This document shows positions 5,214 to 62,700 of a DNA stretch of 64,000 bases, one piece after another. The number at the start of each line of letters is the position of its first letter. Position 1 is the stretch's first letter. Source of the stretch: Hydractinia symbiolongicarpus. Lineage: Eukaryota. Where the stretch lies: contig NC_079880.1 in assembly GCF_029227915.1 (NCBI RefSeq), positions 19,643,855 through 19,707,854 on the forward strand, read 5' to 3'. The translations under genes and the position numbers were made by a program. Below the pieces are notes generated by a model that saw only the letters and a program-made list of their open reading frames with translations, ran no database searches and had not been told where the DNA came from.

Positions 5214-5287
5214 CTAAAAACAGTGTGTTATAAATCCATAAATATAAGAAAAAGAACGTCAACTATTAACAAAGTCGAAATAGATAC

Positions 5288-5752
5288 CTCAATCATTCCT
5301 GTCCAAGGATTATGAATAGGAACTGATGATCGCTCGGGTATTGTGATATTCCACGATGAAAAAAAATCATGATAATGCATGCAACTGTCACCTAAAATCC
5401 ACCCACATATTTTATCTGGCTCTACAAAAGCATCGATGAATATACTCCATACTTCATGTGCAAATTCTTTCACCCCAGACACACAAACTCTATCTGATGC
5501 TATTTTAGCTTTTTTGCATATATAAGTGGCAAGTTTTATGAGTTCTTTCTCTCCAATTCCAACAGAGCCCACTCCGTGAAAGAATTTTACTAAATCTTTA
5601 CAAACTGTACATTTTGTTGAAGATTTAATGTCAAGTGAGTGAATAATATTTTGCAGACTTCGCCGTTTTACTTCGTGTCTGCTACCAGATGGTAATGCTT
5701 GTATATAACATGACAAACAAACAATGAGAAAGCCACAAAGAATTATTTTCAT
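5288..5752 (-). CDS. SMPD1: Acid sphingomyelinase (SMPD1-like) exon 1. It holds the start codon, a signal peptide (MKIILCGFLIVCLSCYIQA) and a saposin-B domain, and ends at the WNITIP proline-linker start.
   Basis: ORF 5228-5800(-). The Met at 5752 precedes a hydrophobic signal. The Cys pattern CTVCKDLV...CKKAKIA...VCVSGV...ICGWILGDSC matches the ASM saposin domain. The donor is GAG|gtatct at 5288. Confidence 0.7.
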
Positions 5753-7110
5753 TGTTCTGAAATATAAAACACACAGGGGTTTAAAGAAAACTTGTTTCAC
5801 ACAGACATATGATTAGGAGAGTTAAAAAGATAATAGATACAACTATTTAAATGTAAATCTAAAATTTTTTCCTGTGTCCAATTTTTGTTGAAACTTTCTA
5901 TGGTTTCAAGGGAAGGGAGGGGAGTCTTAAAAATCAGCCCTCCAGGTCACTACTATTTATGGCTAACAAGTCAGAAATTATTTCCCCAGGGGATTTTTGG
6001 TGCGAGGAAAAAAACATCTTAGATACATTTCTTATGACTGCCAAAATTAAACAAAAAGAAAAGATAATAATAATCTCTGTTTAAACTAAGAGATTTTCGA
6101 TTATCCAGAGAGTCATAAGGAATTCGATTAAATTTGATTAAAATAAAAATCTTTTAATTAATTAAATATATATAATAGTATAATGATAAGAATGATGACA
6201 AAAACAAAGAGATTAGAAGTATTAAGGACATCAGCTGAACAAAAATTCAATGACCTCCTAGGATGGTATTTTTCAAATACCAGGACTTTCCTGGAGCTTT
6301 CTCACATAGCAGTGGTCTTATAAAATCCAGTTAATATATTTTAATTTCAAATGTTTAATTTACCTTTTTTAATAGTTCTTTCACCTCTCACCTTACCTTG
6401 TATGTTGCTACAAAACTTTCAGTAATTTCTTGCAACTTCAACAAGGACAGAGTGGGACTGACACATGATTTTCAAAGGCCTTAAAAAACTTAATATTATT
6501 GACTATTAATACAAGTGATTGTTTATATAAAAAAAGAAAGCTTTTAAATAAAAGAAATTCGATAACCTTAAAATTTCCTCTAGTGGATTTAACATGAAAG
6601 TCACATGTTATATAATAGTTATGTACATAAAGTTTCATTGTTTAATACAAAAACATAAGTTGATTTCACAAGGGACCTCACGCAAAGTTCAACAATGATA
6701 TTAATACTGAAAGCAACATATTTTATATACAATAAGTAAGTGAGTAAAAAGTTAAGGTGGTTCTAAATCATATTGAAATAAAACAATGATTTTTACAAAA
6801 CAATTAGTTAAAAGAAATGTCTGTCATAAGAAGAGTCTGAACCACTTCTGGGTATTGTTAACTAAGTTGTTTATCTAATCACTGTGCTTATGGATCAGAG
6901 TATATGAGAACTCAGTACGTTATTACGAATATCTTTCCCTTATACCATTTAGTGCTTTGGTCATTATATATCCAAAAATTTCCAATGCTAATGCCAATGC
7001 AAACCTGTTATCCTTTATTTTAACATTATTATAAAAATTAATGTTTTTTCAAGCATCAAAACAGTTTAAAAGATGAGTATTTATAGCAACAACATTTTAA
7101 AACTAGTCTT

Positions 7111-8692: not shown

Positions 8693-9799
8693 TACATTCT
8701 AAGCTGTTCTTTTTTTCATGCTACTAATCAATTTAAAAAGCAGTGAAGAAAATTGAGTTAAAAAATGTTTTCTTTAAAAAATAAGGAAAACACTAGTTCC
8801 TTTAAATATTTTTAATAATAGAAACACGTTTGAAGAGTACCGAGAATGATTGGTTGTTTTAATAGCTTTTCACTCATTCTGTTGAGTAAGTCTGGGGGTT
8901 GGTTTCTTGTTGTTATGTCACGGAAATATATTGCATTTGCCAGTGAGTTTAAAACAAGCTGTAATGGTGGTAGTTGATGCTCACTTTTAAGTATATTATG
9001 TTATTTTTATATTTGAATATCTACAAAAATATTAAGAAGTATTAGACAAAATAAAATTTATTTATTTCATCTTTTTATATATGAACTTATTCACATTTAT
9101 TTGTTTTTGCATGGAAGAATCCCTTTAAATTCAAAAGAAACCTTATACTATTATGAAACTTGACAGCCTGGAGAACAAAGCCTTTGTGTGATGAAATGGA
9201 CTGCTTCACCTGGCGCCCTTATCTTTTTCAGAGCCGAAAGAGCTTATCGCTAAAATTGTAAAGAAAGGAATACATCTATAGGTGTAAAGAAAATTGTGAA
9301 AAGCATATGGTAGGGAGTTGTGTTGTTGACTATAGGCTTATAAGCGGTTTTCCAGCAAAATGCAATTGTTTAGACTGTTTGTGAAATAGGTAAGTGTTAA
9401 AATGAGATTTATTTATTTATTTTCCACCAGGTAGTATAAATTCAAAAAAAAGAAAAAAAATATTCATGCAAGCTTTTTCAAAATTACCTAATGGAGGGAT
9501 AACCACCACAAAGCAAAAGCTTAAAAAGTGTGATGGCTACCTGGAAAAACATCACATGGGACAAAACCACAAAACAACACAGGGTCAAGACAAACAGTTA
9601 GGGGATATGGATAAATTTTATTTAGAGGGACTGTCAAACACTGTTAGCATCAAACCACAAAGCAACAATGGAGAGAAAAGAAAGGTGCAATTTGAAAATG
9701 TAATTAGCTTTCATACGAGTATATGAAATGTTTATGAAGGATTGTTTTCATTTCAATGGTATTTTTATTAGAAAGGGTAAAGAATTTTGAAGATTGCTT

Positions 9800-10750
9800 C
9801 AAGAATTAATTGCAAGAAATTCAATGGATTTTTTACCAAAGGCAGTGGAGTGGACATGAGGTAGATTTAAAAAGCCCTTTTCACCAGCATAAGTGTGGTG
9901 AGAATGAAAAAAAAAAATGTTTAAGGTATTGAGAATGCTGTCAGGAAGAGTTTTATAAAAAATATTTAGAAGAAAAATGATATTATATAATGAGATCATA
10001 TCAGAGAATTTAAGTAGGCTAAGTTTCTAGTAAAGAGGATTGAGAGTCATTGAAGGTACTAAAAGAAATAATATGGACTGCATGATTTTGAAGAACTTTT
10101 ATCCGATGGGTGAGAAAACTTTTTTGACCCCACACTAAAAAGCAATATTGAATTTGAGAATTGAAAAGAACATAATAAATTTGAAGAGGGAGACATTTGG
10201 GAACAAAATGGCAAATTTTTGCAAGAGCTCCATTAGCTTTTTTGAGGCTAGAGCTGGTGTTATTTATTTGGCTTTTCCAGGTGAGATTAGAGTCTAGAGT
10301 TATCCCAAGGTATTTAACGGAGTCACTAGGAATGATCTTTGCTCCATTAATTAGAAATTTAAAGTTATATAATATTTGCTTTAAGGGAGCTTTAAAAACA
10401 ACAAGATCTAGATTTATTTAGGGATATTATTTTATTAACATTGAGCCATTTATTAAGTTGTTTTGGTGACTTGCTGATATTTAGCAAGTTGGTGTCATCA
10501 CCAAAAAGGTGTACCAAGGAAAACTTGATGGATGGTGTAAAGATCATTATTGTGAAGTAGAAACAAAGGTGGACCTAGGACATATCCTGGAATACACCAT
10601 GGTGGATAGTCTTATGAGAGAACAGAGAGTTGTTGATTATACAAATTGTTCCCTATTTGTTAAAAATGAACAAAGTAATGATAAAGGAATACCACACCAT
10701 AGTGATATAGTTTGATGGGAATTAAAAAAGTGCATAGTAAAGGTTTAGCA
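9800..10750 (-). mobile_element. Degraded non-LTR retrotransposon (LINE) reverse transcriptase fragment.
   Basis: Minus-strand translation gives IPGYVLGPPLFLLHNNDL (the RT motif around LSPLLF) at about 10540-10600. It gives KYLGITLDSNLTWKSQI...ANGALAKI (the RT thumb, KYLGV.LD..L.W) at about 10200-10330. Frameshifts are present. Confidence 0.55.
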
Positions 10751-12644: not shown

Positions 12645-12740
12645 ATTCCCGTGGACGAGGTTGAGGAGAAGAATCATTTTCGTCCCCAGATCTCTCTGAG
12701 ATAAAGCCTACGTTCATCTCAAAGAGCTCTGGGGTTAAGA
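12645..12740. repeat. Degenerate or solo copies of the same TIR family. These are gtggacgaggttgagg, cgtccccagatctctctgagat and the inverted catctcaaagagctctgggg. Related solo motifs lie at 8038-8060 and 16058-16072.
   Basis: Recurrence of the motif in both orientations. Confidence 0.45.
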
Positions 12741-12864: not shown

Positions 12865-12978
12865 CAACCTCGTTCCCAGGGCCTTTTGCCTTGTTGATGA
12901 AGTTGATAGCGGCGAAAAGGTTGTTGGCCACTCCGTAATAACGGCTCAGGGGCTACAAAACTCTGTGGACGAGGTTGG
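12865..12978. mobile_element. MITE-like element of 114 bp. Its TIRs are ccaacctcgttcccaggg and ctctgtggacgaggttgg. Its 8-bp TSD is tgcaaaac at 12857-12864 and agcaaaac at 12979-12986.
   Basis: The two termini are reverse complements of each other and the flanking 8-mers match at 7 of 8 positions. Confidence 0.6.
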
Positions 12979-13303: not shown

Positions 13304-13375
13304 CCAACTTTATCCCCAGAATTGTTAGGATTTTTGTGTTGGATGGAATTTAAACAATCCCTGGGGACGAGATTG
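13304..13375. mobile_element. Short 72-bp MITE-like element of the same TIR family. Its TIRs are ccaactttatccccag and ctggggacgagattg. Its 8-bp TSD is atgtYaaa at 13296-13303 and 13376-13383.
   Basis: Direct reading of the sequence. Confidence 0.5.
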
Positions 13376-13731
13376 ATGTCAAATCAATGAGTTCTTTTTC
13401 ACGCTTGATTAACTAATTCGAAAACCACTGAGATAATTTATCATGCTGAATGATCTGCACGTTCGGGAACGAGCTGGCTAGCTTGCTGCAAAAATATCAG
13501 CCTGGTATTTGAACAGACGGAGACTTTAGAAGAAAGATAAAAGAAAAACAGAAACAACGAACTCCAAAGATCTTCAAAGGTCTACGCCGTGTACGTTTGA
13601 TAAGACGAATCAGCAGCAGATCCTCTTATTTTTAAAGGAGAATGTTCAAGACGTTGTAGCTTTAATAAGATAGACAAATCTGCAGCTGGAAATCCGAAAT
13701 ATTTAGTTTATCAATACTTGAAAAATCGGAT

Positions 13732-15771
13732 ATGCTCTTTTGCAGAATGTGCTCAGTATTCCTACGAATTATTTTACTCGCACAATGTTATTACTCATAC
13801 CAAGTCGAAAGGAGGACATCTGATGAGATATTTCATGTAGAAACACCGACTAATTGCAATCACGTGTTTTTTAACCAATCATTTGGCATTCTAACTAGTC
13901 CGTTTTTCCCATTAGGTTATCCGGATGGCACGTCGTGCAAGTGGAAAATAAAAATGGAGGAAGGGTCGCGAATTGTTTTGTCTATAAAAGCGTTTACGTT
14001 AGGTCTTGGTGACAGATTGGAAATAACAGAAAATAGTGAGACATCTATTTATAGTCTCGAACGCCCTCCAAATGACGTCATATTTTCATCAGGGAACGTC
14101 CTTTCTATACAACTAACAAGCAACAAGACCAAATCACAAGTTGTTGATCATACTATAAAAGAATTGAATGAGAATCACACCTTCTACGCAGTGTTCGAGA
14201 AGGAAGGCTGTGGTGGTTTGTTAACAGAGTCTAGTGGATACATAACTGTTCCATCATATATTCATTTATCACAAAAATCGCACCAATGCGCATGGACTAT
14301 ACTCGGCCCAGCAAATAAAGTCATCGATTTGCAGTTCTTACAATTTGATTTACCACCCGGTTCATGTCCATACACGAATATTTATCTACGGGAAGGAGAG
14401 CGCACTGCAGGTTATGTATTAGGAGATTTCTGTGAAGAAAACCCGCCTGTGAATGAATTGCGTTCTTCCAGTAATGTTATATACATTGCGTATAGAACAC
14501 GTCCAAATTTTCTCTCTGGTAGGGTCGAAATGCTTCCAACTGTAAAAATGTTTTATAAATTTTCAGAAGTATGCGGCGGAGAGCTTACGGGCTATTCTGG
14601 TTCTTTCGCTACTCCCAGAAGATGGCTGGACGACGTGTATTCATGTAACTGGACCATTAATGTTCCACAACAAAAATACGTGTCCCTGAACTTCAAGGAG
14701 TGGTCAGTGGCTCCTTTTATAGAGGACGAAGTACGAATTGTTGTTCCGAGTAAAAACGAAATTTACTGGTCGTCAAATACATCTCACCCGTCTAAAACTC
14801 TTGTTATACCAAGCAATAAAGTAGTTATATCACTCACTTCTCATAGGAAGAAGAGTTCACTCACCACTTTAAACTTTTATGGTGTATTCCAGGCTGTAGC
14901 TTCCATAGATAAACAATGTATTGACGTTGGATATAAACAGTTATTCATGTGTGACGAGTGGAAATATATTGATTGTTCATTGAAGTGTGACGGAGTGAAC
15001 GACTGCGATAACGCCATGGATGAAAACAACTGTCCGTTACAAAGTTTGGAAACAGCCATTGTTCTGACGCACCATCACGCCAAACCCCACAATGTCTCTC
15101 GTTATTCTGTCGCTCTATTTACCATTGTTGGAGTCCTCATGTTTATTCTTGTTGTTTGGATCATGATTGACAGGTTTTATAAAAAGGGTGAGCGTGCGAG
15201 CAGACCGCGCATGCGCATGACAAATAAATACCCACGCTCAGAGCAACCATATGTGCGACCTCCACCTTACGTAGAATATGACGAAAGTCAACCTGCAAAA
15301 ATAGATGCACCACCTCCGCCCTATAGTCTCTGCGAAGAAGCATCTTATTGCGATAATGAAAGCCTTCGAAGAGATATTACTGCAAGCGCCGCACGCAATA
15401 GGTATAATAACACTAATAACACATCAGTTGAAGACCAACCCATGGACGAATCTACTGAATTATTTCATGACACAGACATCTTAGGAAGCAGTGGCGACGT
15501 TGCAACACTTGATCCCGTTAATATACCGGATATCACCGACAATTTAGCAGATAATGACGATAATTCCGTCAGTATACACGATATAATCGACAGATCAGCA
15601 GAGAAGGATAGTGATTTGCAAAAAAATTTATATCCAGACGTAAACAATGAAACTAATAGGGACATAAGTGAAAGTACCGACACGTCATATGATAGCGATA
15701 ACGAGTTTTCGTCGGACGACAGTATGTCATTGCCTGATCAGGAAGCATATGCAAAACGATACGAAGACTAA
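13732..15771 (+). CDS. Intronless 679-aa type-I membrane protein. It has a signal peptide, three CUB domains, one LDL-receptor class A module, a TM helix, and a cytoplasmic tail with two PPxY motifs and an acidic Ser/Asp-rich C-terminus.
   Basis: The ORF is uninterrupted. It contains CUB Cys/Trp patterns (CxWxI... with YP..YP), the LDLa motif CDGVNDCDNAMDENNC, the hydrophobic stretch VALFTIVGVLMFILVVWIMI, and the motifs RPPPYVEY and PPPPYSL. Confidence 0.8.
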   Translation: MLFCRMCSVFLRIILLAQCYYSYQVERRTSDEIFHVETPTNCNHVFFNQSFGILTSPFFPLGYPDGTSCKWKIKMEEGSRIVLSIKAFTLGLGDRLEITENSETSIYSLERPPNDVIFSSGNVLSIQLTSNKTKSQVVDHTIKELNENHTFYAVFEKEGCGGLLTESSGYITVPSYIHLSQKSHQCAWTILGPANKVIDLQFLQFDLPPGSCPYTNIYLREGERTAGYVLGDFCEENPPVNELRSSSNVIYIAYRTRPNFLSGRVEMLPTVKMFYKFSEVCGGELTGYSGSFATPRRWLDDVYSCNWTINVPQQKYVSLNFKEWSVAPFIEDEVRIVVPSKNEIYWSSNTSHPSKTLVIPSNKVVISLTSHRKKSSLTTLNFYGVFQAVASIDKQCIDVGYKQLFMCDEWKYIDCSLKCDGVNDCDNAMDENNCPLQSLETAIVLTHHHAKPHNVSRYSVALFTIVGVLMFILVVWIMIDRFYKKGERASRPRMRMTNKYPRSEQPYVRPPPYVEYDESQPAKIDAPPPPYSLCEEASYCDNESLRRDITASAARNRYNNTNNTSVEDQPMDESTELFHDTDILGSSGDVATLDPVNIPDITDNLADNDDNSVSIHDIIDRSAEKDSDLQKNLYPDVNNETNRDISESTDTSYDSDNEFSSDDSMSLPDQEAYAKRYED

Positions 15772-16769
15772 AGCGGCAAATCTTAAAACAATTTTCAACG
15801 AAATATAAAATCGATAAAGTGCAAGGAAACAATCACCTATTTCAGTAAAAAGACTGATACAAAGTTTGACTTTACGCACACAGATGCAGCTTGGTATACT
15901 GTCCCTATACTGTCATCAGGATTGTATGAAACTTTCTGTCTGTTTACGTGTGTTAAAATCTTTAATTTGAACGTATTTTTAAGCAAAGTTGTTCTATCTT
16001 GTATCTTTTTGACATCGGGGCAGCGATACGAACGTCATGATGTCAGAATATAAGATGTCCTGGGGACGAGGTGGCATAAAATTTTACTGGCTGATTACAT
16101 TTTTTTTGTCCTAAAGCTTTTCCGCTTCAGGGACACATATACATGGTGTCCATCTCGTCACACCGACACTTTTCGTTGATGAGAAATTATATACAATACA
16201 TGAGAACGAGGCTAAATAAGCAGGACAGCACTGGGTATATCATCACCTAAAACTTTTATATTTTTGGAATAGCTCATTAATTTAGGAAAGTGATGAAAAC
16301 AATACGCGACAGAAAATTATCTGCGAAATTTACGAATATGTGCAAAGAAAAATTTACAAATAATAACTAAAAAAACATAAAATGCAAGTGTAAAATAATA
16401 ACAAATTTCCTTTTTAAAACACCGCAACCAAAGTTAATTTTGAGATATTTTTTAAAGGGCATTGAACCTTTCTCCAGAGGGCGTTGTTTGTATTTTTTTT
16501 TTATAAAATACTGCGTAAAATTATTTTTAAAAACGACAAAATCAAAATACAAGTTTAGTTAAACCACATTCTGCTAAAAATAAATTAAAATAAAAACGAA
16601 CGAAATCCCAAAGTTTTTATAGTATAATTGTCGAGCTTCTGTGGAAGTTAGATATTCGAGACAATCGAAATTTTATTGAAAATCTTACCGATCAAAGCCT
16701 GCTATTCTAAACGAACTTAAAACCGAACAATTTTATACGTATTTCCTAACTTCTTAATTTCAAATTTTA

Positions 16770-46058
<29,289 letters not shown>

Positions 46059-48726: not shown

Positions 48727-48838
48727 AGCACCCTCGTCCCTAGGTTTTTTTTGTCTTTTTGATATGACAAGACGACGAAAATTATTTTCGAGGTCATCTC
48801 CTATATCAAGAAGGCAAGAAACCCTGGGGACAAAGGTG
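48727..48838. mobile_element. MITE-like element of 112 bp, same TIR family as 12865-12978. Its TIRs are agcaccctcgtccctagg and ccctggggacaaaggtg. Its perfect 8-bp TSD is ATCAATAT at 48719-48726 and 48839-48846.
   Basis: The TIRs are reverse complements of each other and the flanking 8-mers are identical. Confidence 0.65.
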
Positions 48839-49652: not shown

Positions 49653-51109
49653 GTAACTGTTATTGACAACTGACATCTTCATACAACGCATTTTTTACAT
49701 TTGGATTTTTTTGTCGTTTTCATAATATGCATAGTTAAAAATATTGTGTTCATAATATGCATATAGTTAAAAAAAGGTAAGAAATTAGGGTTTAAAATCG
49801 CAAAAATATGTTCCGCAAAAATTGCTCGTCATAAAAACATCACAGGAACGCAAAATAACAAACAATTGCGAGTTCAGAAACAGTTCTGTTTTACCGCAAA
49901 CTATGGCATCGATCAGATATAAAAGAACTACAAGAAGATCTGGGGATTAAATTTACTGCCACTCCACCATTCTAGTTCGGTCGTGATCCCTATCGTTATT
50001 CTAAGAAGTTAAAAGGCAACCTCTTTTCCAAAGTTTCTTAGTTCTTTCTTGTTTAGATTCCGGCCCTATATATATAAAAATTCAAGCTCTGAAACGATGT
50101 ATTGTTGAAATTGGTGTTTAATCCAAAATGTTTTCGTTTCAAAATAATCTCTACTTTACATTCCACCAGGATAATAATGGCGTCGACCATTCCCATTCGG
50201 ATGCGGACTAAGGCCTGGGGTGCAGGACGAGGTCTCACGGTCTGCGTACTTTTGTTTTGCGGTCTTGATGAAAATAGGATTGTTGCATGCAAAAAATATA
50301 TAGTGGAAGGTTGCTCTTCTTTTGCATTTTGACACAAAATGTGTTAAGTACATTTCGATAATGATGGCTGGACGTACACGTATTAGTGGAATCTCCTTTT
50401 GTGGACTTAAAAATTGCAGACCTGCTTTTTCTACAAAAAATGCGAGGCAATTGAACTATTTGGCTTTTGATACATGCACAAAAAAAGCGAGTCCTGGTCA
50501 CCATGACCATGCGAAGGTAACAATAAGGTAAGTCTTGAAATTAAAAATTCTACGTATTAGCGAATTATAGCCAATTTTAAAATATTTTTCAAAAGTTATT
50601 TCTGTTGAGAAAGTGCTCAATACCAACAAAGATGAAATAGAGCAATGTTAAAATTCAATGTATTTGAAAATAAGTTAAAAGTATATAGCTAACTGTCGGT
50701 TTCACGCTGAATGATTATACAGTGATAAACTACTTCAAAAAATTTTTAAAAAAACTGTGTAAATCTGGTGGCAATATTTACAAGTTACAGATATAGAAGA
50801 GTATTACAATTAAAAAAAAAACAGTTAAAAGAAAGACGTATAAAATTATTTGCCTGCTCTGAAATCATGTGGTTACATAGAAGAGATAAAGTTTGAAAAA
50901 AGAAACAAAAAGGAAAACAAATCAAGATCGAGAAAAATAATATAGTTCAATCCACCGTTAATACAAACGTTGCAAAGCGATTTTTATCAGTTGTCAGCAA
51001 AAACTTTCCTAAAACACATAAATTCCACAAAATTCTGAATAGAAACACTTTAAAGGTTAGCTTTAGCTGTTTACAAAACATTTCGTCAATCGTATCAGTA
51101 CACAATAAA

Positions 51110-51300
51110 AAAGTTTTAAGAGGAGAACCGCAAAACCAAGAAGTCAAATGTAATTGCAGAATTAAAACTAACTGCCCACTCGAAGGAAAATGTCTCAATA
51201 AGAGTGTTATTTACAAATGCCATGTCAAATCGAGGCCACAAGATGGCAGTGTTCATTATATTGGCCTTACAGAAGGAACTTTTAAAAAGGAGATTCTGTT
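51110..51300 (+). mobile_element. GIY-YIG endonuclease-like fragment with an upstream Cys-rich motif, as in the C-terminal EN domain of Penelope-like retroelements (..KCNCRIKTNCPLEGKCLNKSVIYKCHVKSRPQDGSVHYIGLTEGTFKKEILFK..).
   Basis: Plus-strand translation. It carries a VIY (GIY) motif and a YIG motif preceded by CxC..C. No intact ORF is present. Confidence 0.35.
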
Positions 51301-61344: not shown

Positions 61345-62700
61345 TACATTTTGATGTTCCAGGGCGTGCCACTACAGATGCAATATTTTTACTCAGACAG
61401 CTTCAGGAAAAGTATTTAGGAAAGAAAAAGAATCTCTATTTTGCCCTTGTAGATTTAGAGAAAGCTTTTGATAGAGTGCCACATAAAGTTTTTTGGTAGG
61501 CTATGAGAAAATTAAGTGTGGATGAGTGGCTAGTTACAATGGTACAGTCTATGTACAGAAATGCTAGTTGTGTCAGGATTAATGATTCTATTAGTGATGA
61601 ATTTAGTGTAAATTTTGGTGTACATCAGGGTTCTGTACTTAGTCCTTTGTTGTTTCTTCTAGTCTTAAAAGCGCTGTCGATGGAGTTCAGAACAGGTTGT
61701 CCATGGAAGTTACTGTATGTAGATGATTTGGTTCTTATAGCAGAGTCAATGGAAAAATTAGTTGAAAAGTTTGAGAAGTGGAAGAAAGGACTAGAAGAGA
61801 AAGGGCTAAGGGTGAACACAGCAAAGTCTAAAGTCATGATTAGTAGCATTGCAGCCAAGTGTGACCTTGTAGTTGGAAAGTGGCCTTGTGGCGTTTGCAG
61901 GGAAGGGGTTGGTAGTAACTCCATTTTTTGTCAGACTTGCAAGCATTGGGTACATAAGAAGTGCAGTAGTATTGGTGGAAGGTTAGAGCTGACATTCAGT
62001 TTGTATGCAAGTGTTGCAAAGGTGAGATTATAGAGAATGAAGTATTTCCAGCTTCAGTGATGTACAACAGTGGCTCGTTAGAGATAGTTGAGAACTTCTG
62101 TTATTTAGGTGATATGTTGGGCAGTGAAGGGGGTGTTGAAAGAAGTGTTACTAGCAGAATAGGTTCTGCTTGGAAAAAGTTCAGAGAGTTGACTAGCTTC
62201 CTTTGTTGACTGGCAGAGTCTTGTCAATTGAGTTAAAAGGTAGGTTGTATGAGGTCTGTTTAAGAAGTGTTGTGTTTACGGCAGTGAGACATGGGCAGTA
62301 AAGCAGGAAGATAGTGACCGTTTAGAAAGGAATGATATAAGAATGGTTAGGGAGGATGTGTAACGCCAGTTTGAGAGACAGAAAGAGTTCAGATGAGCTA
62401 AGAAACAGGCTAAGTATCCATAGAATTAAAGATGTTATCCAGATAAGAAGACTGAATTGGCTCGGGCACTTGGAAAGAATGGAGGGGGATAATTGGGTAA
62501 GAAAGTGTAGAGACTTGATAGTTTCTGAAGCAAAGCCCAGAGGCAAACCGAGAAAGACTTGGCAGGAGGTTATAAGGACAGACTTGATACAGAGGAAGTT
62601 GAGTTTAGATCTAACACAGTCTAGATCAGATTGGAAGAGGGTCATTAATATACCCCGTCCAAACCATGCTAGCATGGAAAACGGACGTTAAGCCGAGAAT
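61345..62700 (+). mobile_element. 5'-truncated non-LTR retrotransposon (LINE). It holds RT motifs (FDRVPH, GVHQGSVLSPLLF, YVDDLVLIA), a Cys-rich segment and a degraded C-terminal region (RLNWLGHLERM...GKPRKTWQEV). One in-frame TAG lies at 61497.
   Basis: ORFs 61275-61499, 61503-62033 and 62356-62691(+) are in the same frame. The RT frame is continuous with DLAT exon 61164-61331 through the donor. Confidence 0.8.

What the first reader, a model, noticed from the sequence alone, without database searches (positions are those of the whole stretch)
13732..15771. Intronless CUB-CUB-CUB-LDLa transmembrane protein with two cytoplasmic PPxY motifs in an otherwise intron-rich locus
Every neighbouring gene has many short introns. 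This 2040-bp ORF has none. It encodes a signal peptide, three CUB modules, an LDLa module (CDGVNDCDNAMDENNC), a TM helix and a tail with RPPPYVEY and PPPPYSL. It ends in a very acidic Ser/Asp-rich stretch (SYDSDNEFSSDDSMS). PPxY motifs recruit NEDD4-family WW-domain E3 ligases. The layout resembles NETO and LRP3/LRP12-type CUB-LDLa receptors, but three CUB domains is unusual. The absence of introns suggests retroposition or recent origin.
Basis: partly seen in the sequence, partly recalled or inferred. Interest (0 to 1): 0.6.

Follow-up and report, generated by a model that had tools for sequence, protein, structure and literature searches.

The report
Cnidarian single-exon CUB-LDLa membrane receptor
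This is a real, selectively maintained gene for a cell-surface receptor (three CUB modules, one LDLa module, a membrane anchor and a tail with conserved PPxY docking motifs) that belongs to an old, uncharacterised cnidarian family, and its lack of introns is the ancestral state of that family and not a sign of recent retroposition.

Summary
The 2040-bp ORF (13732-15771, +) is real: 679 aa, chance about 1e-18, and dN/dS 0.17 against a 95%-identical relative. Domain calls hold. There are three CUBs (Pfam E 2e-33, confident AF2 β-sandwiches), a divergent LDLa, a TM helix at aa 459-479, and a disordered acidic tail with two PPPY motifs. The LDLa is below Pfam threshold here, but 13/18 relatives hit it, all six Cys are invariant, and it models at pLDDT about 80.

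A [P/L]PxY sits 24-48 residues after the TM in all 18 relatives examined. The relatives span Hydrozoa, Scyphozoa (Sanderia) and Anthozoa (Exaiptasia). No collinear bilaterian match appeared among the best 150 hits.

The retroposition or recent-origin reading fails. Five other genomic loci, including Exaiptasia, carry the gene as one uninterrupted ORF. Only two Hydra species have introns: two short GT-AG introns inside CUB2. There is no poly(A) remnant, target-site duplication or local paralogue.

Most likely function (inferred): a type I receptor whose tail recruits NEDD4-family WW-domain ligases for ubiquitin-dependent sorting, as in LRAD3, LRP10 and CYYR1. NETO2 is the only solved protein collinear across CUB-CUB-LDLa-TM, but its CUBs are not the closest, so orthology is unproven.

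Verdict: an ordinary new member of a known kind, of modest interest.

The parts
13732..15771 (+). Complete single-exon coding sequence, 679 aa plus stop. A second in-frame ATG lies at 13747.
   Evidence: Chance about 1e-18. dN/dS 0.17 against P0001/L002.
13490..13731 (+). Upstream stretch collinear with the sister-species contig L002. Probably 5' UTR, not proven. The pyrimidine tract + AG (ctcttttgcag) that ends 2 nt before the second ATG lies just inside the ORF (13735-13745).
13732..13797 (+). Hydrophobic N-terminus (aa 1-22), presumed signal peptide.
   Evidence: Hydropathy peak in this protein and in most relatives. AF2 helix 2-28. No signal-peptide predictor was available, so this is an inference.
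13855..14202 (+). CUB1 (aa 42-157), with one disulfide pair, C42-C69.
   Evidence: Pfam CUB. AF2 β-sandwich, pLDDT 82-92. PDB hits to C1s, MASP and enteropeptidase CUBs.
14209..14568 (+). CUB2 (aa 160-279), a canonical four-Cys CUB with the invariant GDFCEENPP motif. The two Hydra-specific introns map to window nt 14323 and 14425.
   Evidence: Pfam best stretch 160-256. Invariant C160, C186, C212, C234. Hydra exon mapping.
14572..14901 (+). CUB3 (aa 281-390), divergent, with one disulfide pair, C281-C305.
   Evidence: Pfam CUB_2 300-376. AF2 β-sandwich.
14917..15033 (+). LDLa-like module (aa 396-434), C-x10-C-x7-C-x3-C-x5-C-x8-C, with the D424/D430/E431 acidic cluster.
   Evidence: Pfam 17.8 bits, below the 24.1 cutoff. 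13/18 relatives hit PF00057. Six Cys invariant. PDB hits are all LDLa modules. pLDDT about 80.
15106..15168 (+). Transmembrane helix (aa 459-479).
   Evidence: Hydropathy 2.8. AF2 helix 457-485. Conserved position in all relatives.
15259..15270 (+). PPxY motif 1 (PPPY, aa 510-513), 31 residues after the TM.
   Evidence: Y513 is invariant across 18 sequences. The motif is present in 18/18 relatives.
15313..15324 (+). PPxY motif 2 (PPPY, aa 528-531).
   Evidence: A second [P/L]PxY follows the first within about 25 residues in 11 of 18 relatives.
15460..15483 (+). Conserved tail motif LFHDTDIL (aa 577-584). Function unknown.
   Evidence: Present as [LM]FH[DN]TD[IV][LI] in 7 hydrozoan members.
15688..15729 (+). 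Acidic Ser/Asp cluster YDSDNEFSSDDSMS (aa 653-666). Candidate phospho-acidic sorting signal.
   Evidence: Hydra has the similar YESDFEE. Tail net charge is -26 and pLDDT is below 35.

Best explanation
The ORF is a functional single-exon gene in a hydrozoan genome. It encodes a type I membrane receptor of an old, cnidarian-wide and so far uncharacterised family. An ectodomain of three tandem CUB β-sandwiches and one membrane-proximal LDLa module binds an extracellular ligand or a cis partner. A single TM helix anchors it. A disordered, strongly acidic cytoplasmic tail presents one or two conserved PPxY motifs about 25-50 residues from the membrane.

The most likely mechanism is inferred from precedent and has not been tested here. 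The PPxY motifs dock WW domains of NEDD4-family HECT ubiquitin ligases. The receptor and whatever it holds would then be ubiquitinated and sorted through the endosomal pathway, or the ligase would be activated, as described for LRAD3, LRP10 and CYYR1. The acidic Ser/Asp cluster and the LFHDTDIL motif are probably further sorting or phospho-regulated signals.

The absence of introns is the ancestral structure of this family. Hydra secondarily gained two introns.
For: Shown here:
- Real ORF under purifying selection: dN/dS 0.17 overall, about 0.10 in the ectodomain and about 0.40 in the tail.
- Three CUBs: Pfam E 2e-33, and AF2 pLDDT 70-92. Foldseek and PDB hits are to cubilin, PCPE-1, neuropilin, MASP and NETO2.
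- LDLa at family level.
- TM helix and disordered tail.
- [P/L]PxY 24-48 residues after the TM in 18/18 relatives across three cnidarian classes. Shuffled tails give such a motif only 1.5-15% of the time, and Y513 is invariant.
- Family breadth: Hydra LOC100203247, Sanderia malayensis, and Exaiptasia XP_020906175.1.
- Single-ORF structure at L004, L005, L006, L007 and L008, and introns only in the two Hydra loci.

From the literature:
- LRAD3's two PPxY motifs bind and activate Itch/Nedd4 (PMC5331069; PMC11315911, citing Noyes 2016).
- LRP10 (CUB + LDLa + TM) has a proline-rich tail with a PPxY (PMC11315911).
- CYYR1, a single-pass protein, binds WWP1 WW domains through its PPxY motifs (PMC11399591).
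Against: - No binding, ubiquitination or localisation data exist for any member of this family.
- PPxY also binds non-ligase WW proteins such as YAP.
- The ligand of the ectodomain is unknown.
- Transcription in this species is not shown directly. The only hint is a 2.3-kb collinear contig from a sister species (L002) whose ends hug the CDS, and I could not establish whether it derives from RNA.
- The signal peptide was not tested with a dedicated predictor.
- The weak Pfam hit of the TM-PPxY stretch to CYYR1 (E 0.09, 13.6 bits against a cutoff of 31) is not significant.
Confidence: 0.6

Rival explanations
1. It is a NETO/SOL-2/LEV-10-class auxiliary or clustering subunit of ligand-gated ion channels. 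The CUB-CUB-LDLa-TM cassette contacts a receptor ectodomain, as NETO2 does on GluK2, and the extra N-terminal CUB and PPxY tail add lineage-specific regulation. This is compatible with PPxY-driven turnover.
For: - The family profile matches NETO2 (7f56_E) in one collinear stretch covering CUB-CUB-LDLa-TM, E 1e-31, 113-114 bits.
- Foldseek alignments to NETO2 are the longest of all hits, 349-376 of 396 columns.
- CUB(+LDLa) type I proteins with 2-5 CUBs are established receptor auxiliaries (PMC9083331).
Against: - NETO2's CUBs score lower than those of cubilin, PCPE-1 or neuropilin. The match therefore reflects shared architecture, not specific sequence affinity.
- No NETO-like protein is among the best 150 representatives.
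- The literature places the origin of NETOs in bilaterians (PMC9282427).
- The C-terminus (-KRYED) is not a PDZ ligand like those of NETO1/2 (PMC9083331).
- No expression or interaction data exist.
Confidence: 0.17
2. It is a recent retrogene or young gene: a processed mRNA copy of a multi-exon parent inserted in this lineage.
For: - The CDS has no introns while the neighbouring gene has many.
- Reverse-transcriptase remnants lie in the window.
- There is no conserved synteny with the other loci within ±8-10 kb.
Against: - Orthologues in Anthozoa, a scyphozoan-like lineage and two other medusozoan lineages are also single uninterrupted ORFs.
- The family is 24-50% identical across classes, so it is ancient.
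- There is no poly(A) tract (longest A run is 7, about 600 bp downstream), no flanking duplication, and no paralogous exons in the window.
- dN/dS is 0.17.
Confidence: 0.03
3. The PPxY motifs signal through non-ligase WW-domain proteins, for example YAP/Yorkie or other WW adaptors. That would make this an adhesion or signalling receptor and not a ubiquitin-sorting one.
For: The PPxY motifs are conserved. That PPxY is a general WW class I ligand is established knowledge and was not tested here.
Against: The closest architectural precedents with PPxY tails (LRAD3, LRP10, CYYR1) all involve NEDD4-family ligases (PMC5331069, PMC11315911, PMC11399591). The acidic/Ser cluster fits trafficking signals better. 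Nothing in my data discriminates directly between the two readings.
Confidence: 0.12

Closest known systems
NETO1/NETO2, Drosophila Neto, C. elegans SOL-2 (iGluR auxiliary subunits)
   Same: Type I membrane proteins with tandem CUBs, one membrane-proximal LDLa and a TM. NETO2 is the only solved chain collinear with CUB2-CUB3-LDLa-TM of this family.
   Different: - This family has an extra N-terminal CUB.
- Its CUB sequences are closer to the cubilin, PCPE-1 and neuropilin types.
- The tail has PPxY motifs and an acidic cluster in place of the PDZ ligands of NETO1/2 (PMC9083331).
- NETOs are reported as a bilaterian innovation (PMC9282427).
LRP3 / LRP10 / LRP12 (CUB- and LDLa-containing 'distant' LDLR relatives)
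   Same: Single-pass receptors that combine CUB and LDLa modules, with tails carrying sorting motifs. The LRP10 tail is proline-rich and has a PPxY (PMC11315911, PMC5331069).
   Different: Those proteins have two CUBs interspersed with three to five LDLa repeats (PMC5331069). This one has three tandem CUBs followed by a single, atypical LDLa. No direct sequence comparison was possible, because none of them is in the PDB set searched.
LRAD3 and CYYR1 (PPxY-bearing single-pass adaptors of NEDD4-family ligases)
   Same: Both have two PPxY motifs in a short tail close to the membrane. LRAD3's LDLa is among the best PDB hits to the LDLa module. PPxY-dependent binding to Itch/Nedd4 (LRAD3) and to WWP1 (CYYR1) is documented (PMC5331069, PMC11399591).
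   Different: LRAD3 has three LDLa repeats and no CUB. CYYR1 has neither domain. The Pfam CYYR1 hit is sub-threshold.
C. elegans LEV-10 (five CUB + LDLa) and SOL-1 (four CUB)
   Same: They are multi-CUB type I proteins, which shows that the CUB number varies from 2 to 5 in this architectural class (PMC9083331).
   Different: They differ in CUB number, and I know of no PPxY tail in them. No sequence comparison was done here.
Database orthologues: Hydra vulgaris LOC100203247 and Exaiptasia diaphana XP_020906175.1 ('CUB domain-containing protein 2')
   Same: They share the same family and architecture, at about 45% and about 27% identity.
   Different: Hydra has two introns in CUB2 and a single PPxY. 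Exaiptasia has a more canonical LDLa. Neither has been studied; I found no paper that mentions the Hydra locus.

Membership tests
CUB domain (Pfam PF00431) | Score above the Pfam gathering threshold; β-sandwich fold with conserved Cys pairs | tested here: met
   115.3 bits against a 21.4 cutoff, in three stretches. Three AF2 β-sandwiches, pLDDT 70-92. Invariant Cys pairs.
LDL-receptor class A (Pfam PF00057) | Score above the Pfam gathering threshold for this protein | tested here: not met
   17.8 bits against a 24.1 cutoff, matching profile positions 8-37 of 37 only.
LDL-receptor class A (Pfam PF00057) | Six conserved Cys plus the C-terminal acidic D-x-x-x-D-E cage; homologues recognisable as LDLa | tested here: met
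   - C396, C407, C415, C419, C425, C434, D430 and E431 are invariant in 18 sequences.
- 13/18 relatives hit PF00057, best E 1.6e-07.
- All PDB hits to the stretch are LDLa modules.
- pLDDT is about 80 with a β-hairpin and short helical turns.
- Caveat: the third Cys is shifted by 3 residues and the first loop is longer than in canonical LDLa.
NETO family | CUB-CUB-LDLa-TM order in a type I protein | tested here: met
   Collinear single-stretch match to NETO2 residues 44-370. An additional N-terminal CUB is present.
NETO family | Specific sequence affinity: NETO closer than other CUB proteins | tested here: not met
   - NETO2 scores 113 bits for two CUBs + LDLa + TM. PCPE-1 scores 139 and neuropilin-2 scores 132 for two CUBs alone.
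- The single-sequence E-value to NETO2 is only 0.0024.
- No NETO-like protein appears in the best 150 representatives.
NETO family | C-terminal PDZ-binding motif (NETO1 class I, NETO2 class II; PMC9083331) | tested here: not met
   The C-terminus is ...AKRYED.
NETO family | Physical and functional association with ionotropic glutamate receptors | not testable with these tools
   This needs co-expression electrophysiology or co-immunoprecipitation.
LRP3/LRP10/LRP12 subfamily | Two CUBs interspersed with three to five LDLa repeats (PMC5331069) | tested here: not met
   Three tandem CUBs and one LDLa.
LRP3/LRP10/LRP12 subfamily | Cytoplasmic sorting motifs, including PPxY (LRP10; PMC11315911) | tested here: met
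   Two PPPY motifs, conserved family-wide.
Retrogene (processed copy) | Intronless CDS | tested here: met
Retrogene (processed copy) | Poly(A) remnant and target-site duplications at the ends of the insert | tested here: not met
   The longest A run downstream is 7 nt, at 16369. There are no flanking direct repeats other than a dispersed 15-nt motif that also occurs elsewhere.
Retrogene (processed copy) | Lineage-restricted copy, with intron-bearing orthologues in outgroups | tested here: not met
   The outgroups are intronless: Exaiptasia L005, anthozoan L007, scyphozoan-like L006, and medusozoan L004 and L008. Only Hydra has introns.
Retrogene (processed copy) | Multi-exon parental paralogue in the same genome | not testable with these tools
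   Only the 64-kb window is available, and it holds no paralogous exon.
WW class I ligand (PPxY) / NEDD4-family adaptor | Cytoplasmic, accessible PPxY motif conserved in orthologues | tested here: met
   The motif lies in a disordered tail with pLDDT below 35. It is present in 18/18 relatives at a conserved distance from the TM.
WW class I ligand (PPxY) / NEDD4-family adaptor | Demonstrated binding to a NEDD4-family WW domain | not testable with these tools
   This needs pull-down, ITC or ubiquitination assays.

The most novel reading that the evidence does not exclude
This cnidarian-wide CUB3-LDLa-TM family is a pre-bilaterian relative of the NETO/SOL/LEV-10 class of CUB-LDLa auxiliary subunits. 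It would assist or cluster cnidarian ligand-gated ion channels, with a PPxY tail coupling receptor complexes to NEDD4-type turnover. That would move the origin of this class of synaptic auxiliary proteins back to the cnidarian-bilaterian ancestor, contrary to the published view that NETOs arose in bilaterians (PMC9282427). It would also make this an anciently intronless member, possibly a stem-cnidarian retrogene, of an otherwise exon-shuffled domain class.
Probability: 0.15. Interest if true: 0.55.

Novelty: new member of a known kind. Interest (0 to 1): 0.25.

Why it matters
The practical value is mainly corrective. Missing introns in an intron-rich genome did not signal a young retrogene here, and comparison with five other genomic loci shows that the single-exon structure is ancient.

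Three modest points are worth keeping:
- A conserved, unstudied cnidarian receptor family links a CUB/LDLa ectodomain to PPxY motifs. It offers a tractable case for studying how NEDD4-type ligase adaptors worked in early animals.
- Its collinearity with NETO2 makes it the obvious candidate if anyone looks for NETO-like auxiliary proteins outside Bilateria.
- Hydra provides a clean example of two lineage-specific intron gains inside a domain of an ancestrally intronless gene.

Tried and rejected
- **Recent retroposition.** Rejected by the intronless orthologues and by the absence of poly(A) or target-site duplications.
- **Flanking 22-nt direct repeat (13361 / 16060) as a target-site duplication.** Rejected. 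It is one of six copies of a short dispersed motif whose flanks are not conserved.
- **Synteny.** tblastx of the window against L001 and L003-L008 found nothing beyond the gene. The one upstream match to Hydra (window 10.1-10.6 kb) is a reverse-transcriptase remnant, not a conserved neighbour. Positional orthology could therefore not be shown.
- **Identifying the source species.** The exact protein is not on record. The 95% relative comes from run SRR9332381, which no paper in the library mentions. Cluster look-ups gave no names for the hydrozoan relatives.
- **Literature on the Hydra orthologue.** None found.
- **First AF2 model (8 hydrozoan sequences).** It left the LDLa at pLDDT 40-50. A deeper 12-sequence alignment fixed this.
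- **Viewing the NETO2 alignment residue by residue.** This failed because only the five best hits are printed. I ran no further search on NETO, because multi-CUB and multi-LDLa proteins would have flooded the list.
- **Pfam CYYR1 and Syndecan hits on the TM-tail stretch.** Sub-threshold, and I did not use them as evidence.
- **Paralogous CUB exons in the window.** None.
Full report
**1. The observation**

Nothing comparable exists elsewhere in the 64 kb. The next longest ORF is a 284-aa low-complexity artefact. With the window's composition (GC about 33%) a stop is expected every 13 codons or so. The probability of 679 stop-free codons is about 1e-23, or about 1e-18 after correcting for all positions and both strands.

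**2. A functional gene**

A 2320-nt contig from a public sequencing run (L002, SRR9332381) is collinear with window 13490-15796 at 94.7% nucleotide identity. It encodes a 95%-identical protein of the same length. Between the two, dS = 0.128 and dN = 0.021, so dN/dS = 0.17. The ratio is about 0.10 in the ectodomain and about 0.40 in the TM and tail. That is purifying selection, strongest on the extracellular part.

The contig's ends lie 242 nt upstream of the ATG and 25 nt past the stop. This would be an odd coincidence for a random genomic contig and suggests a transcript. I could not establish the library type, so expression remains an inference.

**3. Domains**

- **CUB.** Pfam calls CUB in three stretches (E 2.3e-33) plus CUB_2.
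- **LDLa by sequence.** For this sequence alone the score is 17.8 bits, under the 24.1-bit gathering cutoff, and only the C-terminal 30 of 37 profile positions match.
- **First model.** An AF2 model from 8 hydrozoan sequences gives three confident β-sandwiches (aa 42-157, 160-279, 281-390; pLDDT mostly 70-92). It also gives a helix at 457-485 and a tail with pLDDT below 35. The LDLa stretch is poorly modelled in it.
- **Second model.** An alignment that adds scyphozoan-like and anthozoan sequences raises the LDLa module to pLDDT about 80, with a β-hairpin and short helical turns.
- **LDLa at family level.** 13 of 18 relatives hit PF00057, best E 1.6e-07. All six cysteines plus D430 and E431 are invariant. 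Every PDB hit to the stretch is an LDLa module: VLDLR, LRAD3, LRP2, relaxin receptors and NETO2.
- **Atypical features.** The module is a real but atypical LDLa. In the alignment to VLDLR the third Cys sits three residues later than the canonical one, and the first loop is longer.
- **Secretory features.** Six N-x-S/T sites lie in the ectodomain, and the tail has net charge -26. The hydrophobic N-terminus is shared by most relatives. No signal-peptide predictor was available.

**4. The family**

The word-indexed search found only nine relatives, the one named being Hydra vulgaris 'uncharacterized protein LOC100203247'. The exhaustive search of 1.84 billion representatives returned 1439 hits, mostly giant cubilin-like proteins. 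Among the best 150 it also returned about a dozen further proteins of 280-740 aa that match in one or two collinear stretches from the CUBs through the LDLa, most of them on into the TM and tail.

Two of them carry names: Sanderia malayensis (Scyphozoa) and Exaiptasia diaphana XP_020906175.1 'CUB domain-containing protein 2' (Anthozoa). Pairwise identities sort the sequences into three groups: a hydrozoan group (35-50% identity to the query), a scyphozoan-like group (about 30%) and an anthozoan group (about 26%). No protein known to be bilaterian matches collinearly among the best 150. The named short hits are cubilin-type CUB proteins of Ciona, Armadillidium, Priapulus and others. The family is therefore old and, as far as this search sees, restricted to Cnidaria.

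**5. The intron question**

I mapped each protein back to its own genomic locus by tblastn. In every case below the alignment is gap-free over the full length.

| Locus | Protein | Length | Context |
|---|---|---|---|
| L005 | P0099 (Exaiptasia) | 612 aa / 1839 bp | Multi-exon RPE65 next door |
| L007 | P0171 (second anthozoan) | 636 aa / 1911 bp | Also next to RPE65 |
| L006 | P0169 (scyphozoan-like) | 557 aa / 1674 bp | 6.4-Mb contig |
| L004 | P0030 | 588 aa / 1767 bp | 1.1-Mb contig |
| L008 | P0206 (closest hydrozoan lineage) | 899 aa / 2700 bp | 2.6-Mb contig |

One caveat applies to L007. Its called start is followed by a TGA at codon 10, so the true start is probably a downstream ATG. 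The rest of the ORF is uninterrupted.

Only Hydra differs. In H. vulgaris (L001) the gene has three exons (aa 1-191, 191-225, 223-763), separated by introns of about 178 and 70 bp with GT...AG ends, and read-through runs into stops. A second Hydra species (L003) is split at the same two places. The introns fall at the equivalents of window nt 14323 and 14425. Both lie inside CUB2, not at domain boundaries.

One gain event in the Hydra lineage is far more parsimonious than four or more independent complete losses. The intronless state is therefore ancestral for the family. If a retroposition ever created it, that happened before Anthozoa and Medusozoa split.

Locally there is nothing retrogene-like. 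The longest A run downstream of the stop is 7 nt, about 600 bp away. The first AATAAA is about 800 bp away. The gene has no flanking duplication, and the window holds no paralogous CUB exon.

**6. The tail**

Every one of the 18 relatives has a [P/L]PxY 24-48 residues after the TM, and 11 have a second one within about 25 residues of the first. Shuffling each tail gives such a motif only 1.5-15% of the time. The Tyr of the first motif (Y513) is one of only 27 invariant columns in the whole 18-sequence alignment.

Two further motifs are conserved within hydrozoans. One is [LM]FH[DN]TD[IV][LI] (window aa 577-584).

**7. Mechanism**

*Shown here:* a secretory-type ectodomain of three CUBs and one LDLa, a TM helix, and a disordered acidic tail with conserved PPxY.

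*Inferred:* the PPxY motifs recruit NEDD4-family HECT ligases through their WW domains, giving ubiquitin-dependent endocytosis and sorting of the receptor and its bound partner, or ligase activation. The precedents are close in kind:
- LRAD3 (LDLa repeats, TM, two PPxY) binds and regulates Itch and Nedd4.
- LRP10 (CUB + LDLa + TM) has a proline-rich PPxY tail and down-regulates IL7R through its TM and ICD.
- CYYR1 (single-pass, PPxY) binds WWP1 and sends it to lysosomes.

These come from PMC5331069, PMC11315911 and PMC11399591. I put this at about 0.6. The main alternatives are that the PPxY motifs serve other WW proteins, and that the ectodomain's job is that of a NETO/LEV-10-like channel auxiliary. 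The two readings are not mutually exclusive.

**8. Comparison with NETO**

A profile of the family matches NETO2 (PDB 7f56_E) in a single stretch. It aligns the family's CUB2-CUB3-LDLa-TM with NETO2's CUB1-CUB2-LDLa-TM (E 1e-31, 113-114 bits). Foldseek alignments of the second model to NETO2 are the longest of all hits, 349-376 of 396 columns.

However, PCPE-1 and neuropilin score higher with two CUBs alone, and the query by itself reaches NETO2 only at E 0.0024. No NETO-like representative is in the top 150. The C-terminus is not a PDZ ligand, and the published view is that NETOs arose in bilaterians (PMC9083331, PMC9282427). I therefore file NETO as the closest architecture, not as the family. 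The idea of a pre-bilaterian NETO-class relative is the most novel reading still open (about 0.15).

**9. Verdict**

The structural interpretation is right. The evolutionary interpretation (retroposition or recent origin) is wrong, and 'three CUBs is unusual' is weak, since CUB number in this class ranges from 2 to 5 (PMC9083331).

The gene is a new member of a known kind: a CUB-LDLa type I receptor with a PPxY tail, in an uncharacterised cnidarian family already present in databases under generic names. Interest is modest, at 0.25.

Noticed in passing
window 12649-12663 (+), 12865-12879 (-), 12963-12977 (+), 13361-13375 (+), 16060-16074 (+), 48729-48743 (-): A 15-nt motif, CTGGGGACGAGGTTG (up to 2 mismatches), occurs 6 times against 0.02 expected. 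Five copies lie within about 1.1 kb upstream or 0.3 kb downstream of the gene. Only a core of about 17 nt is shared and the flanks are unrelated. The motif is absent from the orthologous loci, and L002 does not reach the motif sites. It could be a cis-regulatory site or the relic of a short repeat; it remains unexplained.
   Followed up: partly
L001 10571-10751 and 10855-10933; L003 about 9650-9790 and 9900-9968: Two Hydra species carry two short GT-AG introns inside CUB2 of an otherwise ancestrally intronless gene. This looks like a clean case of lineage-specific intron gain away from domain boundaries.
   Followed up: yes
window about 18944-34198, minus strand: A large multi-exon gene. It has a DUF4062 N-terminus (33899-34198), a STAND/NACHT-type P-loop (32094-32699) and WD40 / TEP1-like β-propeller exons (18944-23881). 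This is an NWD/TEP1-like STAND NTPase architecture.
   Followed up: partly
window 61503-62033 (+); 10059-10590 (-); 50900-51127: Retroelement debris. There is an RVT_1 + PHD ORF at 61.5 kb and a LINE RT-like remnant at 10.1-10.6 kb that matches Hydra L001 6.6-7.1 kb. A 76-aa stretch at 50.9 kb matches Hydra L001 1401-1628 (E 7e-16). These are shared transposon families, not synteny.
   Followed up: partly
window 26290-27144 (-): A 284-aa 'ORF' made of (LIYLF/IHSF)n repeats. It lies in a stretch with low GC (0.27) and high AT skew (0.18), so it is repeat DNA and not a gene.
   Followed up: no
window 5228-5800 (-): A 190-aa ORF with a hydrophobic N-terminus and a Cys-rich stretch (CTVCKDLVKFF...). 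It has no Pfam hit at E 0.01. It may be the first exon of a secreted, saposin-like protein.
   Followed up: no
window 13735-13747: A pyrimidine tract plus AG (ctcttttgcag) ends 2 nt before the second in-frame ATG and is conserved in the sister-species contig L002. It could be a 5'-UTR or spliced-leader trans-splice acceptor, which would make ATG 13747 the real start.
   Followed up: no
L007 8001-8030: The gene called for P0171 has an in-frame TGA at codon 10. The true start is probably a downstream ATG, as in the 559-aa cluster representative P0117. The rest of the ORF is uninterrupted.
   Followed up: partly
window 15460-15483 and 15688-15729: Two tail motifs are conserved among hydrozoan relatives: LFHDTD[IV][LI], and an acidic Y[DE]SDxE[EF] cluster. 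Neither has an assigned function. The first loosely resembles an acidic-cluster/dileucine-type sorting signal.
   Followed up: partly
L005 2746-7622 (-) and L007 4857-7633 (-): In both anthozoan loci the gene sits head-to-head with an RPE65-family gene. This synteny is conserved within Anthozoa but is not seen in the window or in the other medusozoan loci.
   Followed up: partly
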